NCBI RefSeq assembly: GCF_009914755.1
Contig: NC_060942.1
Source of the DNA: the human T2T-CHM13v2.0 reference genome, Homo sapiens
Reading direction: 5' to 3' (one strand)
DNA length: 64,000 nucleotides
Positions within the stretch are counted from its first letter, which is position 1; the number at the start of each line of letters is the position of its first letter. Below, piece after piece: positions 5,476 through 57,188 of the stretch. The notes under the pieces were generated by a model that saw only the letters and a list, made by a program, of their open reading frames with translations, ran no database searches and was not told the DNA's origin. Position numbers and translations under genes: made by a program.

Positions 5476-6431
5476 AAGCTGTAAACCAAAAGTATTGGAG
5501 GTGAGGCTCATTCAGTTTAGAAAGCTTATTTTTGTCAAGGTTAAGAACATGTTCATGACATAGCCTCAGGAGGTCTTGATGACATGTGCCCAAGGTGGTC
5601 GAGGTATAGCATGGTTTCATACATTTTAGGGAGACATGAGACATCCATCAATACATATAAGAAGTACATTGGTTCAGTCTGGAAAGGATAGACAACTTGA
5701 AGCAGGGGCTTCCAGGTCACAGGTAGATTTTCTGATTGGGAATTAGTTGAAAGATTTATTAGTAATAGAAAGGAATGTCTGGGTTATGATAAGGGGTTGT
5801 GGAGACCAGTATTTTTCAGGCAGATAAAGCCACCAGGTAGTAGGCTTCAGAGAGAATACATTGCAAATGTTTCTTATCAGACTTAAAGAGTCTGTTCTAT
5901 CAGTAATTCCAAAAGGGAAGAGGGTATAATGAGGCATGTCCAGCTCCCTCCTTCCCATCATGGCCTGAACTAGTTTTTCAGATTAACTTTGGAATACCCT
6001 TGGCTGAGAAGAAGGTCCATTCAGATGTTGTGGAGTTTAGAATTTTATTTTTGGTTTACATTCTCCCCCTTCTGTCCAGGATTTGCCAGAATCAATGCCA
6101 CGGAACTTTTACTTTGTCTCACAGTGTTAACAGGGTGGCATGTCTGCCTGCCATAGGCCCATCCTGTGCCTCAGTGGGACTCCCAAAGGCCAAGGCACTT
6201 AGAGCCAAAAGACTTATAGCCAATGAAATTTTTTAGGCCAGATAGGAATGGATGTGGACAGGCATTCATTACCCCTCAAAAATTTTAAAGTAGTATAAAA
6301 TCCAACAAACAAAAGCCAACAGCAAGGTTAGAAAATTGACTTTATCTTTAACTTCTATGCATTGAGCTACCATAATCTTGGTTTTGGTCACAGACTTATA
6401 GGAATTAGCTATAGAAAACATAATTGTTATT

Positions 6432-11356: not shown

Positions 11357-12487
11357 TATTCTGAGTTCTTTAAGGAACCTGAGTCATTAGAAGCCTTATC
11401 TAGATTTTTTTTTTCACTTGATACTGAAGATGGCCAAGAGTGAAGGAGGAATAGGGCAGAAGAAAAGTAAATGAAAGAACAATTTTTTTTCAAGAAAGGA
11501 AGTGAACAGAGAAACCAACTGGATGTTTTTATTTTTCAGTTGCAAGGAATTTTAGCCAATTCAAAGGCCTTGTTCTCCATAATTTGGAATTCCTAATCAG
11601 ATTTGACCAAGTTGGGTAGAGCCAGTCAAATCCAAAGGAAGACCAGAACAACAGCAAGCAAAACAAAAAAACAAACAATGATTACTTAGTGCTCTAATGT
11701 TAAGGAGAAATTAAGAGCAGTTGGTTGTCAATTTTAACTTTTAGTTATTTAGGAGAATTTTCAAGACAAAATCCCAATTCAGCTACTTACCCAGGAATGG
11801 GGCCCAGGTTCAAGACTGCTATCTACCATCCTAGCAGCAGGGGGGAAAAAAACCCTCAAATTCACCTTCCCTATTGGAAGTGAGCTGAAACTCCAGAAAG
11901 CAGTTGCCTCCTCTCTATTGCCATGGAAGCAGGAACAAGCGCCTTCCTTGTTGGAAGTGAGTAAAACTCCAGAAAAGGAGCTGTACAGCTAAATAAACTT
12001 TAAATCTCAACCAGATTTTGGGAGATTGGGGATTCTATGGAGAAGGGAGCTCCCAGGCTCCAGAAAATTGTCCTGTTGTTTTGAGCAATAAAGATAGCTC
12101 AAGCTGGTGCCAGGCACTGACAGGAAATTTGTCAAAGGTCAGGAGCACCTCTGCTCAGAATCCCTTTGAGGTTGCCAATTTGTAAACCAAAAGTATCTGA
12201 GACAGGTCTCAATCAGTTTAGAAAGTTTATTTTGCCAAGATTAAGGATGAGCTTGTGACACAGCCTCAGGAGGTCGTGATGACATGTGCCCAAGGTGATG
12301 AGGGTAGAGCTTGGTTTTATACATTTTAGAGAGACATGAGACATCCATAAACATATGTAAGATGTATATTGGTTTGGTCCAGAAGGGCTGGACAACTCAA
12401 AGCAGGGGCTTCCAGATCACAGGTAGATTGAAGGATTTTCTGATTGGCAATTTGTTGAAAGAATTATTATGAATAACAAGGTCTGGG

Positions 12488-12627
12488 GCCTGTAAATCCC
12501 AGCTACTCAAGAGGCTGAGGCAGAAGAATCCTTGCACCCAGGAGCAGAGGTGGCAGTGAGCCAAGATCGCACCACTGCACTCCGGCCTGGGCAACAGAGC
12601 AAGACACTGTCTCAAAAGAAAAATAAA
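12488..12627 (+). mobile_element. 5'-truncated Alu (right arm) inside the MER4A 5' LTR
   Basis: gcctgtaaatcccagctactcaagaggctgaggcagaagaat...ctgtctcaaaag; absent from the other LTR. Confidence 0.85.
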
Positions 12628-15600
12628 GAAAGGAATGCATGGGTTGTGATAAGGGATTGTGGAGACCAAGAATTTATCATGTAGATAAAGCCTCCAGATA
12701 GTAGGCTTCAGAGAGTAAATGTTTCTTATGACTTAAAGAGTCTCTTCTCAGTCATTCCAAAAGGAAGGAGGTTATAATGAGGCATGTCTAGCTGCTCCCC
12801 TTCCCATCATGGCCTGAACTAGTTTTTCAGATTAACTCTGGGATGCCTTTGCCAGGAGGAGAGGTCTATTCAGATGGTTGGGCAGCTTAAAATTTTATTT
12901 TTGGTTTGCAAAGCCATCCATTGAATTCTTAATATTATTTTATTTTCAGTTTTATAATTTAAATTTTTAAAATAGTTTTATGTTTCTGCCAAATTCACCT
13001 CCTTATCTTTAATTTCCTGAACATGTTAATCATAAAGATTTTCAAGTCATATCTGAAATTCCAGTACCTTTATTCCTGTGTGTCTGTTTTTTTGTATATT
13101 TTCTTTCTCTTGTTTTTCATACAAATGTTATTTTCTTACATGCATAGTAATTTTTGCCCAATATTTTTTCATGAAAAATTTATAGAAATAATTTGAGAAT
13201 CTTAGAAGGATTCTCTTTCTCCAGAAATGATCTACATCCACTTCTGGCAGGCAGCTGGGTTGGAGGTGGATCACCTTAATTCAATGAGGTGTGGAAATGA
13301 CTCAAACTTGAGGTTTCCTGCTTGTGAGGGTCAGTTTGTTTCCAATTCATCTCTACCCTAGTCAGAGACAGTTCTTTGGATCCCAAATAAATACCTGTAA
13401 TGTTTATCAAGACCCCTCCTTTTGCATGCAGAATTTAGAATAGAAGCTCTATGAGGGCAGGAATCTTTGCAATTTTATTCGTTGCTCAAAATTCTGGTCA
13501 GGACCTGGAAGATATAGGCATCCAATAAATATTTCTTGAATTAATAAATTGATAAACGAACAAGATATAAATTACAGTAACCAGGGGATATCAATTCCTA
13601 TAACAAACTGATGAAATTAAAAATCTGACAATACCTAATTTTTAGCAAGTAGGTATAAAACTGAGACCATTCCTACAAGAATGTACACAGGTAGTTTTAG
13701 AGCTTGATTTGGCAAAACGTGGCAATTGAAGATGCACATACACTTGAATCTAGCAAATCCATTCTTAGATATATAGTTTAGAAACATTTACATTCTGTTC
13801 AATGTAAAATTCTTTCTGTCTGTTCTTATATTTGAAATATTTCTTTATTTTTTAAGACAGCATGGTTGGGACATAGTAAGTATATAAATGAGTGAACAAT
13901 GAAGCTTGACAGGAGAGCAGGGGTTACCCCCCTCTTAAGGTCTTACAGGTCATTCTAAGTTTTAGTGATTTCCCCTCTGAAAAGGAAATGCCATTGAGGT
14001 GTTCTGAGCAGGATAGTGGCATATTTGCTTTCATTTTAGATCAACAGTGTGGATGCTGTGTGGAAAAGGGTTTGGGGGATTGTAGAAGTGGAAATAGGGA
14101 AGACAGTTGGGAGAGTTTGCAATGGATTTGGTAGGAAGGGAGGGTGGGTTGGGTGAAAAGACTCAACATAGTGCCTAACATGCAGTGAGTGATCAATACC
14201 ATGAATATTACTCTTATTGCTCAGACAATCCAGGGATATACAGTCATTTGTCCTTTACTGAGAATGGAACCCCAACCCTCAATATTTTATTCACATACAA
14301 TGACCATGCTGTTTTCTTGAAGTTATGTCTTATCTCTTCTAGATTTAAAATCAAAGTTCTCATCATCTGCTTTCTCACTTTGTACATTGATACCATTTCT
14401 CTACATTTTCACAACAGCCTTTCTGTATACCTGGCCCTATCTTTATAATTTCCTTCAATCTTATAGCTCCTCTGCATTGTCTTAGCTGCTCTCGCCTTCT
14501 CTAGTGCCCTTCTTCCTCACCTTTTCTAACCTGTGTACATCAGGACCTTTAAGATCTGATTCTCTTCTCCATGCTGTGACCAGCTTCTTTGCTCAGAGAT
14601 TATTTTCTTTGCTTTCTTACACGTTGAAAATCATCACTCCAAATATGTTTATTTCCAGCTCCATCCCTTGGGCCCTGCCTGAGCCTCTCTCAGGTCCTCA
14701 TGGCTGAATCCACCAAACCCCCTCACCTGTAACCTCTCTCTTGCCCCAGCGTCTGTCCTAGTCCCAGGCAGAACTGGGTCAAAGAAAATAATTATATTAG
14801 TGCTACTGCCCCTTATCTTCTGCTGTTGGGCAGGGGTGCTTCATACTCATCTTCTGCCACCTTCAACTCAGATTAGGTGGCAAATCCCATACTCTGACCA
14901 CTGTGACAGCACAGTCCTACCCTGACATTCTGCTCAAAACTTTCCTTGCTGTGGCCCTGAGTGGGGGCTGAATGTCCCAATGCTGATTCCTGATTCCTGC
15001 AGTCCCACTGTGATTGTAGGGTTAGAGCTGTCCCCAGCTCCCACAGGACCTCAGATTGGACAACTCCATCATGGCCCTGCAGCTTTTAATCCCTTTTCTG
15101 TGAGCTAGTTTGCAGCGTCTGATAATTAGAGGATCCCTTTTGTATTGCTGATGAATATCTGGTTGATTCCCACTCATTTCCCAAGAGTGCTTACAGCCAT
15201 ACTTTGTTCTTTTCAGGCCTCACCCCTGGAGACTAGGTCTTTTCCATAAACTTTACCTCCAAATGCTAAAGACCTGCTGACTCCTACAGACCTTAACTAA
15301 GACTGCAAGACCTGCAGAGCTCTTGATAGATTCATGATTCTTGTACTCGGTGAGAGGATGGGCTTCTCCAATGGGGATGCCTTAGTGCTGATCATCTGTT
15401 TAAATCTGGGTTGGAGATTGGAGTGTTTGCATGGATAGGAAGCCTGGCATCTTCAATTAGATTTGCTAAGCCATTGCTACTACTTACAGCCTGGATGCCT
15501 GCAACTCCTGCCCCATGGATGTTCTATTTCCAGCCCTCAACACTACCTCTGTTTTGCTGCCCTGTCTTGTGTTAATAACATCTAGGCATCCCTGATGCAT

Positions 15601-24083: not shown

Positions 24084-24794
24084 GTGACACAAAATATATC
24101 TAGTGACTACTCTTTGTGGAAAATCTTTCTTATTTGTCTCTTATCCTGTGTAATAACAGCAGCAATTGGAGTGTTCATTGTGTGCCTGGTCAATAAATAT
24201 GAGGACAACACTGCCTCCATTATTATCCATGTACCCCTAGATGATGTGGAACCTAGAATAATCATTCCTGAAACAACCACACTGCCTATCTCTTAATCTA
24301 CAGTGACCACCACAACAGAACTAACTACGTCAATTGTACACACAACTACCACAACAGATAATTCTAAAATTTCAACTGAACTTATGACCATAAGGTCCTC
24401 TACCATCATGTCACCTGAACCTGCAGCCAACACAATTTCAACCGAACCTACAAACATAACCCCAGTAACCTTCACTTCAACGGAAGCTATTACCATAATG
24501 GAAACAATCATCAGCATTTCAATGAAATCTTCTACTATAATGGATAGTACCACCACTCCAACAGAATCTATCACTTCAACTGAGCATAATAGCACCACAA
24601 CAGTTATGGTCATGTCAATAGAAGTTATACCTAATGTTACTCCAACAGACCTTACAACAATAACCACTTCAATGGAACATACAACTCCTGAAGCTACAAC
24701 CATCAACACACACAAAAAAAAAACAAACACACAAAACACCTGCAACAACACAAGGACTTCCTCACAGCAAAGAAACTTTTATTACTACTTTTAA
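24084..24794 (+). pseudogene. DYNAP-like pseudogene A, exon 3 homolog (TM helix plus long Ser/Thr mucin-like stalk)
   Basis: After the acceptor tttttag it reads VTQNISSDYSLWKIFLICLLSCVITAAIGVFIVCLVN, with 25/50 identities to the start of DYNAP exon 3. A single in-frame TAA lies at 24294-24296; the same frame then stays open and Thr/Ser-rich to 24794. AATAAA at 25132. Confidence 0.92.
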
Positions 24795-54682: not shown

Positions 54683-54920
54683 GACAAATGGAAAATAGAA
54701 TAAGAGAAGATGAGATTTTGCAAATTTGTCTTTCTTCTAATGTAAGGGACAGCAGACAATTATTTCCACCTGCATGAAAACATGGACTTCAAGCCCATCT
54801 TTCAGAGACACATAGTGACTCAAATGATGTTAACCCAATAAGTTATAAGTAATATAAAAGAGATGATAAATTACAAGCATTTTTGTTTTTCATTGCTGAT
54901 ATTTTTATATACATGCTTAG

Positions 54921-55253
54921 GTAAAAGAATATTGCCGCAATGACTGGTCTATGTGGAAAGTCTTCCTGGCTTGTCTCTTAGCCTGTGTGATAATGACAGC
55001 AATTGGAGTACTTATAATATGCTTGGTGAATAACAAAGGATCGGCCAATTCCTCCATTGTTATCCAGCTATCCACAAATGATGGAGAGTGTGTGACTGTC
55101 AAACCTGGAACACCCTCTCCTGCTTGTCCACCTACAATGACCACCACTTCAACTGTACCTGCAAGTACAGCCACTGAATCTACAACTTCAACAGCTACAG
55201 CTGCCACCACTTCCACAGAACCTATAACTGTTGCACCTACCGATCATTTATAA
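54921..55253 (+). CDS. DYNAP: DYNAP coding exon 3 (CLLAC transmembrane helix plus short Thr/Ser-rich tail)
   Basis: gcttag|gtaaaagaatat gives VKEYCRNDWSMWKVFLACLLACVIMTAIGVLIICLVNN...VAPTDHL*. The three exons sum to 45+55+110 = 210 aa, matching the DYNAP protein as I recall it. Confidence 0.96.
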   Translation, partial: VKEYCRNDWSMWKVFLACLLACVIMTAIGVLIICLVNNKGSANSSIVIQLSTNDGECVTVKPGTPSPACPPTMTTTSTVPASTATESTTSTATAATTSTEPITVAPTDHL

Positions 55254-55258
55254 TTTGA

Positions 55259-55611
55259 ACAGCCATAGCCATCACTTCAACTGAAACTTCAACCTCTACC
55301 ACTTCAACTCAGTTTGCAACTATAATAGCTACTCCTATCACTTCAAGTGGAATCATGGCTGCAGTCACTTTAACAGACTCTATAACCGTTACAACTTCAA
55401 CAAAATCAAGTCCTACTTCAACTTAAACTTACTTGACAACTCAAATAATCACCACTTCGACCATCTCTTTGACTGAATCAACAACTACATTCCCTTCAAC
55501 TGAATCTGCAACCACTTCCACTTAACCTATAACTACTGTAACTTCTACTTAGCCTACAGTAACAATGCTCATCACTCTTTTCCAACAATGTATAATCTCC
55601 ACCTATTCATC
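55259..55611 (+). other. Fossil mucin-stalk reading frame in the DYNAP 3' UTR
   Basis: In a shifted frame it reads TAIAITSTETSTSTTSTQFATIIATPITSSGIMAAVTLTDSITVTTSTKSSPTST*TYLTTQIITTSTISLTESTTTFPSTESATTST*PITTVTST*PTVT..., and resumes at 56374 after the LTR. Confidence 0.85.
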
Positions 55612-56369
55612 TGAGGACTAAGCTCTGATTTTTCATCTTGCCCAAATTCCTTTCTAAGGGGTATGGGGAGTCATGCCCTACAAACCATAAATTCTCATCA
55701 GATGGGTTTTATTTAACCCTGTATATTGTGACTTACTTTCTAATCTGACTCTGGCATAACAAGGGAAAAAAATCAAAATGTTTTACCCCAAAATATATTT
55801 CCTTGCCATACCTTGAAATTGTCCTGCAAAGTCTCTTGTGGAGAAACTCCACATTCTGTAGAGAATATCCTTTCCCCTTTGTTTTCCTTCCTTTCTTTCC
55901 AGATCCAGGAGATAATCAACTAAGAGCCAGGCACCCTTTTAGGTCTAATAAGAAACACTTTACAACCTGCTCTCTCTCTGAAGTCTGCTTTCTGAGAGAT
56001 TCCTCTGCACAATAAAACTTGATCTCCACAATCCTTTATCTTAACCTGAACATTCCTTTCCATGGATCTCAGGTCTTCAGATAAACTAAACCAATTGTCA
56101 ACCAGAACATGTTTAAATTTACCTATAGCCTGGAAGCCCCAACTTTGAGTTGTCCTGCCTTTCTGAACCAAGCCAATGTATTTCTTAAATGTATTTGATT
56201 GATGTCTCATGTCTCCCTAAAAATATATAAAACCAAACTGTACCTTAGCCACTTTGGACACATGTTCTCAGGACCTCCTGAGGGCTATGTCATGAGCCAT
56301 GGTCACTCATATTTGGCTCAGAATTAATCTCTTAAAATATTTTACAGAGTTTGACTCTTTTTGTCAACA
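55612..56369 (+). mobile_element. MER4-group solo LTR (MER4D/E-like)
   Basis: tgaggactaagctctg...tttgtcaaca; 4-bp TSD catc (55608-55611 and 56370-56373); AATAAA at 56011. Confidence 0.88.
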
Positions 56370-56574
56370 CATCCGAACCTGCAACTACAAATGCCACCAT
56401 TACCACTTAAAACTTGATAGAACTAGCATCAGTCATCAAAATAACCTGTTCTATATTAAGTTAACTTTTAGTTATCACCAGTAATACTAGCCTACAACTA
56501 CTCGCCACACTGGCTCTTCCCCAAAATTGAAATTGTACAATATGTGAGTCTAATTCTTGCTAACATAACATTAT

Positions 56575-57188
56575 TGCCTACATTAAAAGCTTCTGCAAAG
56601 CAAAGGGAATGAAATGAAAAGGCAGCCTGCAGAATAGGAGAAAATATTCGAAAATTATATATCTAATAAGTGGTTAATATCTAAAATATATCAGGCATTC
56701 ACATAACTCAATAGCAAAAAAACAAATAACCTGATTTAAAAATGGGCTAAAGATTGGAATATACATTTTCCCAAAGAGGACATACAAATGGCCAACAGGT
56801 ATGTGAAAATGTGGTTAACAGCACTAACCATCAGGGAATTTAGAGTTAAAACCACTATGAGATATCACCTCACAGCTGTTAGTTTGACTATTATCAAAAA
56901 GTAAAGAGATAACAAATGTTATTGAGGATGTGGAGAATAAGGGACCCTTGTACACTGTTGGTGAGAATGTGAATTAATAAAGCCATTATGGACAATAGTA
57001 TGGAGGTTCCTCAAAAAATTAAAAACAGAACTACCATATGATCCAACAATCCCACTGCTGGGCATGAAATCAGTGTCTTGAAGAGATATCTGCACTTCCA
57101 TGTTCACTTCAGTATTATTCACAGTAGTCAAGATATGGGACCAATCTAAGCTTCCATCAGTGAATGAATGGATAAAGAACATGTGATT

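What the first reader, a model, noticed from the sequence alone, without database searches (positions are those of the whole stretch)
55240..56465. DYNAP is a truncated mucin: its lost stalk is fossilised in the 3' UTR and reads in register across an LTR
Right after the stop, a shifted frame from 55259 encodes ~117 Thr/Ser-rich codons with three stops. Excising the LTR and one catc TSD joins ...acc tat tca tc|c gaa cct gca act aca aat gcc acc att acc act (TYSSEPATTNATITT) in the same frame. The ancestral ectodomain was therefore at least ~130 aa longer, comparable to pseudogene A. Inference: a frameshift near 55245 and/or the LTR insertion shortened the protein in primates.
Basis: partly seen in the sequence, partly recalled or inferred. 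Interest (0 to 1): 0.75.

Follow-up and report, generated by a model that had tools for sequence, protein, structure and literature searches.

The report
Relic coding sequence in DYNAP 3' UTR
Monkeys and apes, including humans, carry a shortened DYNAP membrane protein, and about 55 codons of its lost sugar-bearing stalk still sit, decaying, in the untranslated tail of the gene.

Summary
From 55259 a frame shifted against the DYNAP reading frame gives 117 codons, 61 of them Thr/Ser, with 3 stops; 0 of 1000 dinucleotide shuffles reach that count. A 758-bp solo LTR (55612-56369, 4-bp duplication CATC) interrupts the array, and the frame continues in register behind it.

The first 55 codons (55259-55423) are a real relic. 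The C-terminal 55 residues of two lemur proteins and one bat protein match them far beyond composition (z 7.9, 7.9, 4.7). The lemur stops project exactly onto the first relic stop (55424-55426). All 12 simian species seen end near the human stop, with ectodomains of 49-71 aa against a non-simian median of 106 aa. So about 55 residues were lost, probably on the simian stem. Tarsier was not available.

Three points are not supported. The loss was about 55 aa, not 130 aa or more. The LTR played no part, since it lies 185 bp beyond the ancestral stop. A single frameshift is not enough, because both frames carry a stop in the junction.

The stretch beyond 55427 is repeat-unit DNA that may be an older relic; this is untested. 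It is a modest, apparently unpublished case of a known kind of event.

The parts
54921..55253 (+). Last coding exon part of DYNAP: CLLAC transmembrane segment plus a 71-aa ectodomain, ending in stop TAA 55251-53.
   Evidence: Annotation given with the finding. translation. Pfam CLLAC PF15675, 64.5 bits against a cut-off of 25.
55128..55241 (+). Thr/Ser-rich part of the present coding sequence (21 Thr+Ser of 38 residues).
   Evidence: PMC4540312 (passages read) describes the same Thr/Ser-rich C-terminal region, exposed outside the cell.
55242..55258 (+). Junction where the Thr/Ser reading switches from the CDS frame to the mod-3 = 2 frame. It holds TAA 55251-53 in the CDS frame and TGA 55256-58 in the relic frame.
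   Evidence: stop contexts. The cause of the switch is not resolved.
55259..55423 (+). Segment 1: 55 stop-free codons, a relic of the ancestral C-terminal ectodomain.
   Evidence: the last 55 aa of Eulemur, Lemur catta and Hipposideros armiger match it with z 7.9, 7.9 and 4.7 (0 of 400 shuffles each); 26 of 52, 27 of 52 and 23 of 51 positions identical.
55424..55426 (+). First relic stop (TAA), the probable ancestral DYNAP stop codon.
   Evidence: one lemur residue and one human codon remain after the alignment, so the lemur stops project onto it. The Hipposideros stop projects 2 codons later.
55427..55611 (+). Segment 2: 61 more Thr/Ser-like codons in the same frame, with stops at 55523-25 and 55550-52. 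It lies beyond the projected ancestral stop.
   Evidence: 55472-55534 resembles CDS 55173-55229 (75%); no non-simian tail matches it at 0 of 400 shuffles.
55608..55611 (+). Left copy of the 4-bp target-site duplication CATC.
55612..56369 (+). Solo LTR, 758 bp with TG...CA ends, in the same orientation as DYNAP.
   Evidence: 40 other copies in the genome at 79-92% identity, with the same ends; two related copies within the window.
56370..56373 (+). Right copy of the target-site duplication CATC.
56374..56410 (+). Last piece of the Thr-rich array behind the LTR, in register, ending in TAA 56408-10.
   Evidence: 56379-56406 is 86% identical over 28 nt to a repeat unit of the neighbouring paralog.

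Best explanation
DYNAP is a type II membrane protein of the CLLAC family with a mucin-like Thr/Ser stalk outside the cell. In the ancestor of primates, and probably of boreoeutherian mammals, its reading frame ran about 55 codons further than in humans and ended at what is now 55424-26.

On the lineage to monkeys and apes, lesions in 55242-58 ended translation at or near 55251. These lesions are a frame switch plus stops in both frames. The order and nature of the lesions is inferred, not shown.

The orphaned 55 codons (55259-55423) became 3' UTR and have decayed neutrally, mostly by Thr to Ile or Met changes. The Thr/Ser-like units beyond 55427 and behind the LTR lay in the 3' UTR already in that ancestor. 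They are either an older layer of the same erosion (inferred, about even odds) or repeat units that were never translated.

The solo LTR landed in this UTR array tens of millions of years ago and had no effect on the protein.
For: - 31 of the 33 queries gave a match.
- Homology beyond composition: the last 55 aa of Eulemur, Lemur catta and Hipposideros armiger against segment 1 give z 7.9, 7.9 and 4.7, with 0 of 400 shuffles each. Against segment 2 the same tails give z 1.2-1.4, and against the human CDS end z 1.0-1.5.
- Whole ectodomains against segment 1: 0 of 300 shuffles for the two lemurs and the rabbit, 1 of 300 for Hipposideros.
- Colinearity: the global alignment of Eulemur places its tail on segment 1, after the part that aligns with the human CDS.
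- Stop position: the lemur stops project onto 55424-26 and the Hipposideros stop 2 codons later.
- Direction of decay: ortholog Thr against human Ile/Met occurs 6, 6 and 5 times, and the reverse 0 times.
- Distribution: 13 simian sequences of 12 species have ectodomains of 49-71 aa (median 71). 34 non-simian models have 52-180 aa (median 106).
- LTR: its ends and family are confirmed, and it lies downstream of 55426.
Against: - Only 3 of 20 non-simian tails match segment 1 beyond composition. Tails of 25 aa gave nothing significant for the lemurs.
- A search of the read-through relic against 5.8 billion proteins gave no hit at E <= 0.01.
- An alternative register, with the lemur tail on segment 2, scores slightly higher when whole proteins are aligned locally. 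It is disfavoured only by the tail-specific test and by the recent unit duplication in Lemur catta.
- Short ectodomains also occur outside simians: pig 76, Nycticebus 64, Suricata 66, Catagonus 66, Propithecus 58, Microcebus 52. Some of these may be incomplete models.
- All comparisons are with predicted proteins. No non-human DNA could be examined and no tarsier sequence was found.
Confidence: 0.75

Rival explanations
1. The whole array from 55259 to 56407, about 130 codons, was translated until primates, and the frameshift and/or the LTR insertion removed it.
For: The frame is coherent over segments 1 and 2 and across the LTR. All three relic stops follow Thr-Ser-Thr. This is the slot that holds Glu in 54 of 193 Ser-Thr-x triplets of 22 non-simian orthologs, so each stop could be a one-step Glu-to-stop change. 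Family members with long stalks exist: DYNAPP2 reads 197 aa and the neighbouring paralog 1114 aa. Whole-protein local alignments can be laid over segment 2.
Against: The lemur stops project onto 55424 and the bat stop two codons later, not near 55600 or 56408. The lemur and bat tails match segment 1, not segment 2. No protein tested matches segment 2 at 0 of 400 shuffles. Simian proteins of both New and Old World groups already end near 55251, about 360 bp upstream of the LTR site.
Confidence: 0.12
2. Reversed polarity. The short form is ancestral, the Thr/Ser-like 3' UTR was never translated in the human lineage, and lemurs and some bats extended their proteins by losing the stop and reading into repeat-unit UTR.
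For: Short ectodomains occur in pig, peccary, lorises and some carnivore models. The pig protein ends with a His-His-Leu-Ser tail close to the human Asp-His-Leu end. Its last 55 aa match the end of the human CDS (z 6.0).
Against: The pig match comes from the membrane-proximal part, which any short protein shares. Its tail looks like an out-of-frame reading of Thr units, as do the tails of the cat, fur seal and Hipposideros larvatus models. Lemurs and a bat would have had to gain the same 55 codons ending at the same stop independently. 25 of 34 non-simian models exceed 76 aa. Thr to Ile/Met differences run one way only.
Confidence: 0.08
3. No relic at all. The Thr/Ser-rich frame is a by-product of low-complexity repeat DNA, and the matches are compositional.
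For: The database-wide search found nothing. 17 of 20 tails are not significant. The DNA-level unit alignment is no better than codon shuffles, 60 of 500. Tandem Repeats Finder finds no array.
Against: The shuffles keep composition, and still 0 of 400 reach the lemur and bat scores. Identity is 50-52% (26 of 52 and 27 of 52) over alignments that hold only one 2-residue gap and include non-Thr/Ser residues, and the stops coincide.
Confidence: 0.05

Closest known systems
DYNAP orthologs of non-simian mammals (CLLAC family, Pfam PF15675), for example the lemur proteins P0005 and P0007
   Same: The same gene, the same CLLAC transmembrane segment and the same membrane-proximal ectodomain. Their C-terminal 52 residues align with human 55271-55420.
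   Different: In lemurs that stretch is translated. In humans and the other simians it lies behind the stop, in another frame, and has lost Thr codons.
Membrane-tethered mucin-like glycoproteins
   Same: A Thr/Ser-rich extracellular stalk. The literature (PMC4540312, passages read) says the residues 'may undergo O-linked glycosylation' and that the protein runs at 42 kDa against 22.5 kDa calculated.
   Different: DYNAP itself has no tandem array. The Pfam Mucin model scores 17.2 bits, below its cut-off of 34.7. O-glycosylation has not been shown. The neighbouring paralog does have a true array of about 28 units of 111 bp.
C-terminal truncation of repeat-rich genes by frameshift or stop gain, with former coding sequence left in the 3' UTR (general phenomenon; recalled, no paper read here)
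   Same: A premature stop plus a frame change inside a repetitive Thr/Ser-coding region, with the old frame still legible downstream.
   Different: Here it is fixed in a whole primate clade rather than being a disease allele, and it may be layered: an older stop at 55424 and a younger one at 55251.
Solo LTRs of endogenous retroviruses with 4-bp target duplications
   Same: TG...CA ends, a 4-bp duplication, at least 40 dispersed copies with the same ends, and no internal retroviral sequence between the duplications.
   Different: The family name could not be determined because no repeat library was available. That 4-bp duplications are typical of ERV1-type elements is recalled, not tested.

Membership tests
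CLLAC-motif family (Pfam PF15675) / DYNAP | Match to the CLLAC domain model above the curated cut-off | tested here: met
   64.5 bits against a cut-off of 25, residues 8-37 of the exon translation. All 53 database relatives carry PF15675.
Mucin / mucin-domain glycoprotein | Pro/Thr/Ser-rich extracellular domain | tested here: met
   21 Thr+Ser and 5 Pro of 38 residues in 55128-55241. The relic segments have 30 of 55 and 31 of 61 Thr+Ser.
Mucin / mucin-domain glycoprotein | Tandemly repeated units (VNTR-like array) | tested here: not met
   Tandem Repeats Finder returns 0 rows for 54900-56600. Only degenerate Thr-Ser-Thr-Glu-Pro-like motifs and short 75-85% self-matches are seen.
Mucin / mucin-domain glycoprotein | Match to a curated mucin family model | tested here: not met
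   PF01456 scores 17.2 bits, below its cut-off of 34.7. The relic segments give no Pfam match.
Mucin / mucin-domain glycoprotein | Dense O-glycosylation | not testable with these tools
   PMC4540312 (passages) only says O-linked glycosylation is possible and that it is unknown whether glycosylation explains the 42 kDa band.
Relic (former) coding sequence | Homology, beyond composition, to sequence that is translated in orthologs | tested here: met
   Met for 55259-55423 only: (z 7.9, 7.9 and 4.7; 0 of 400 shuffles). Not met for 55427 onward: the best result is 1 of 400 shuffles.
Relic (former) coding sequence | Syntenic nucleotide alignment with the ortholog's coding exon | not testable with these tools
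   No non-human mammalian DNA is held. Only predicted proteins could be compared.
Solo LTR | Dispersed copies sharing both ends, TG...CA termini and a target-site duplication | tested here: met
   40 of 40 scored candidates match at 79-92% identity; 32 of 40 share the start and 27 of 40 the end. CATC on both sides.
Solo LTR | Assignment to a named ERV family | not testable with these tools

The most novel reading that the evidence does not exclude
The CLLAC genes of this cluster are type II membrane mucins whose stalk length is set by repeated erosion from the 3' end. Nonsense changes at the Glu slot of the repeat unit and frameshifts inside the array strand successive layers of former coding sequence in the 3' UTR. 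DYNAP would carry at least two such layers: an old stop at 55424 and a simian stop at 55251. The neighbouring 1160-codon open frame, whose array also runs on past its stop in shifted frames, would be the least eroded member and a barely characterised human membrane mucin. Simian shortening of the DYNAP stalk by about 45% could then be a functional change in a protein that has been reported to transform cells.
Probability: 0.3. Interest if true: 0.5.

Novelty: new member of a known kind. Interest (0 to 1): 0.3.

Why it matters
It shows that human DYNAP, on which all functional work has been done, is a clade-specific short form lacking roughly the last 55 residues of the ancestral ectodomain. 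That matters for choosing animal models and for reading its proposed O-glycosylated stalk. It is also a clean teaching example of legible former coding sequence in a 3' UTR, and of how low-complexity sequence can mislead alignment. It does not open a long-standing question. I found no paper on it: searched 'dynAP', 'dynactin-associated protein', 'DYNAP' with 'frameshift' and 'primates', and 'C18orf26'.

Tried and rejected
- **Tandem Repeats Finder on 54900-56600:** no array.
- **Local alignment of 25-aa ortholog tails:** not significant for the lemurs, at 157 and 163 of 500 shuffles. This showed that my first eyeballed tail matches (Eptesicus, Urocitellus) were not reliable.
- **Urocitellus reading into segment 2, and shared second stop:** not supported (z 1.1). 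The multiple alignment ends this protein near 55424.
- **Register with the lemur tail on segment 2:** considered because it scores slightly higher for whole proteins. Rejected by the tail-specific test and because the extra Lemur catta unit looks, by eye, like a recent near-identical duplicate (sequence; its identity was not computed).
- **Locating the frame switch from DNA self-alignment:** I tried to pin it to a 1-nt deletion in a Glu codon or to a 65-nt tandem duplication. The result is ambiguous: the best alignment is another register and is no better than codon shuffles, 60 of 500.
- **Read-through relic (X at stops) against 5.8 billion proteins, 'longer' lengths:** none of 2686 candidates reached E <= 0.01.
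- **Resemblance of the Gln-Gln-Cys near 55583-91 to the paralog's C-terminus:** rejected. The paralog's end is itself a frameshift product, and there is no colinear DNA match.
- **Tarsier, colugo or tree shrew sequence:** none appeared.

Full report
**1. What is in the sequence.**

The last coding exon of DYNAP (54921-55253) encodes the CLLAC transmembrane segment (Pfam PF15675, 64.5 bits) and a 71-residue ectodomain. The distal 38 residues of that ectodomain hold 21 Thr+Ser.

Six bases after the stop (TAA 55251-53), a frame shifted by +2 (-1) reads 117 codons from 55259 to 55609. It has 61 Thr+Ser and three stops: TAA 55424, TAA 55523 and TAG 55550. The other two frames have 15 and 12 Thr+Ser. 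None of 1000 dinucleotide-preserving shuffles reached 61 in any frame (mean of the best frame 32.9, maximum 49). Tandem Repeats Finder sees no array. Only short self-matches of 75-85% link the stretch to the coding Thr/Ser part.

**2. The inserted element.**

A 758-bp element (55612-56369, TG...CA) lies between two copies of CATC. In the window's own genome, all 40 scored candidates other than the query itself, out of 4342 first-look candidates, match it at 79-92% identity. Of these, 32 start at the element's first base (within 2 nt) and 27 end at its last base (within 2 nt). Two more diverged relatives lie in the window.

It is therefore a solo LTR with a 4-bp target duplication. I could not name its family. 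From the 86-92% identity of 39 of the 40 copies, and recalled primate substitution rates, I estimate an age of a few tens of millions of years. This is an estimate, not a measurement.

Removing the element and one CATC continues the Thr-rich frame for 12 codons, up to TAA 56408-10. The junction restores a Ser-Glu-Pro-Ala-Thr-Thr unit of the kind common in the family. The post-LTR piece is 86% identical over 28 nt to a repeat unit of the neighbouring paralog.

**3. Is it former coding sequence?**

The protein database holds 53 relatives of the exon, all with PF15675, from primates, rodents, rabbit, bats, carnivores and ungulates.

- **Frame of the matches.** A tblastn of 33 of these relatives against 55254-56600 gave 156 matches. 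31 of the 33 queries gave a match.
- **Shuffle controls.** Because only that frame is Thr/Ser-rich, the frame result alone proves little, so I used shuffles that keep composition. Tails of 25 aa were not significant, which disqualified several matches I had first seen by eye.
- **Tails of 55 aa.** These were decisive for three species. Eulemur, Lemur catta and Hipposideros armiger match 55259-55423 with z 7.9, 7.9 and 4.7 (0 of 400 shuffles each). The same tails score z 1.2-1.4 against 55427 onward and z 1.0-1.5 against the end of the human CDS. The other 17 of 20 non-simian tails are not significant against this segment.
- **Alignment detail.** The alignments have 26 of 52, 27 of 52 and 23 of 51 identical positions.
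- **Database-wide search.** A search with the read-through relic found nothing at E <= 0.01. The case therefore rests on the targeted comparisons.

**4. Where the ancestral protein ended.**

In both lemur alignments one residue of the ortholog and one human codon remain, so the lemur stop projects exactly onto TAA 55424-26. The bat stop falls two codons later. A multiple alignment also ends several other non-simian proteins within a few residues of that point, but such alignments of low-complexity sequence are weak evidence.

An alternative register that lays the lemur tail over 55427-55600 scores slightly higher for whole proteins. I reject it for two reasons. The tail-specific test favours segment 1 by a wide margin. 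Lemur catta also owes its fit to an extra unit that looks, by eye, like a recent near-identical duplicate and that Eulemur lacks.

**5. Who is truncated.**

Thirteen simian sequences from 12 species have ectodomains of 49-71 aa (median 71) and end within a few codons of the human stop. The species are Homo, Pan, Gorilla, Hylobates, Nomascus, Macaca, Chlorocebus, Saimiri, Cebus, Aotus, Plecturocebus and Callithrix. A thirteenth species, Symphalangus, was seen only in the listing.

Thirty-four non-simian models have 52-180 aa (median 106). Nine of the 34 are 76 aa or shorter: Sus, Crocuta, Catagonus, Suricata, Nycticebus, two Propithecus models and two Microcebus models. The Crocuta record is named 'partial'. 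Four others (the Propithecus and Microcebus models) stop in mid-array without a distinct tail and may be incomplete, which I could not check.

Differences where the ortholog has Thr and the human relic has Ile or Met number 6, 6 and 5, and the reverse 0. This fits one-way decay of Thr codons in the human lineage.

The most economical reading is that about 55 residues were lost on the simian stem, after the split from strepsirrhines. No tarsier sequence was found, so the haplorhine stem cannot be excluded.

**6. How it was lost.**

The Thr/Ser reading changes frame between 55241 and 55259. Every path from the CDS frame to the relic frame meets either TAA 55251-53 or TGA 55256-58. So one frameshift is not enough: at least an indel plus a stop-creating substitution, or one complex indel, is required.

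Catarrhine proteins end alike. Platyrrhine tails differ from them and from each other over the last three to six residues. This leaves open which lesion came first.

My attempt to locate a 1-nt deletion or a tandem duplication by DNA self-alignment was ambiguous.

**7. The part beyond 55427.**

It keeps the frame of segment 1. All three relic stops follow Thr-Ser-Thr, the slot filled by Glu in 54 of 193 Ser-Thr-x triplets of 22 non-simian orthologs. So the stops are compatible with one-step Glu-to-stop changes.

No ortholog tail matches this part beyond composition, and it lies behind the projected ancestral stop. It may be an older layer of the same erosion or untranslated repeat units; I put this at about even odds.

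The LTR sits 185 bp beyond 55426 and about 360 bp beyond the simian stop. It therefore did not shorten the protein.

**8. Family context.**

The literature describes human dynAP as a 210-aa type II membrane protein. Its Thr/Ser-rich C-terminal region is exposed outside the cell, 'may undergo O-linked glycosylation', and the protein runs at 42 kDa against 22.5 kDa calculated (PMC4540312, passages read; PMC8329785, abstract and one passage). Neither paper, nor any hit, deals with the gene's evolution.

'Mucin' fits only loosely. DYNAP has no tandem array, and the Pfam Mucin model scores below its cut-off.

The family does include true mucin-like members:
- The DYNAPP2 copy in the window reads 229 codons with one stop.
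- The paralog just upstream of the window has a 1160-codon open frame with about 28 tandem 111-bp units and 60% Thr+Ser. Its array runs on past its stop in shifted frames.
- Several ortholog models end in out-of-frame readings of Thr units. Truncation inside the array therefore looks recurrent in this family, unless some of these are assembly errors.

**9. Verdict.**

It is wrong in extent (about 55 aa, not 130 aa or more), in the role of the LTR, and in the sufficiency of one frameshift.

It is a new instance of a known kind of event in a little-studied gene, of modest interest.

Noticed in passing
Outside the window, about -8297 to -4815 in window coordinates (G000:C18:54737703-54741185; locus L004): The DYNAP paralog upstream (in the area of LOC124908007 / DYNAPP1) has a stop-to-stop open frame of 1160 codons. 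It consists of a CLLAC transmembrane segment plus a 1114-aa ectodomain with 60% Thr+Ser, built from about 28 tandem copies of a 111-bp unit (81% matches). This looks like a true type II membrane mucin.
   Followed up: partly
Locus L004, downstream of the paralog's stop (window about -4814 to -3500): The paralog's repeat array continues for at least 1.3 kb past its stop in shifted frames: about 120 stop-free Thr/Ser codons in one frame, then some 300 more in another frame with 3 stops. The present stop follows a Gln-Gln-Cys-Asn tail, which looks like a frameshifted reading of the unit.
   Followed up: partly
window 24105-24794 (+): The last-exon-like part of DYNAPP2 reads 229 codons with a single internal stop. 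Its ectodomain is 197 aa with 77 Thr+Ser. The transmembrane region is 71% identical in DNA to DYNAP exon 3.
   Followed up: partly
Proteins P0023, P0027, P0034, P0047 (cat, fur seal, Hipposideros larvatus, pig): These models end in tails rich in His/Phe/Asn or Leu/Gln. That is what Thr-unit DNA gives in its other two frames. It suggests recurrent frameshift truncation of the stalk, or sequencing errors in the repeats.
   Followed up: no
window 5545-5887 (-) and 12169-12715 (-): Two diverged relatives (72-75% identity) of the 3' part of the LTR. The second is interrupted by an insertion of about 150 bp that looks like an Alu fragment (recognised from memory). It is followed by sequence that might be a primer-binding site, so it may be a 5' LTR.
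   Followed up: no
Proteins P0005 and P0007: Lemur catta carries an extra unit of about 48 aa, which by eye looks nearly identical to its neighbour and is absent from Eulemur. This would be a recent unit duplication and shows how fast the stalk length changes.
   Followed up: partly
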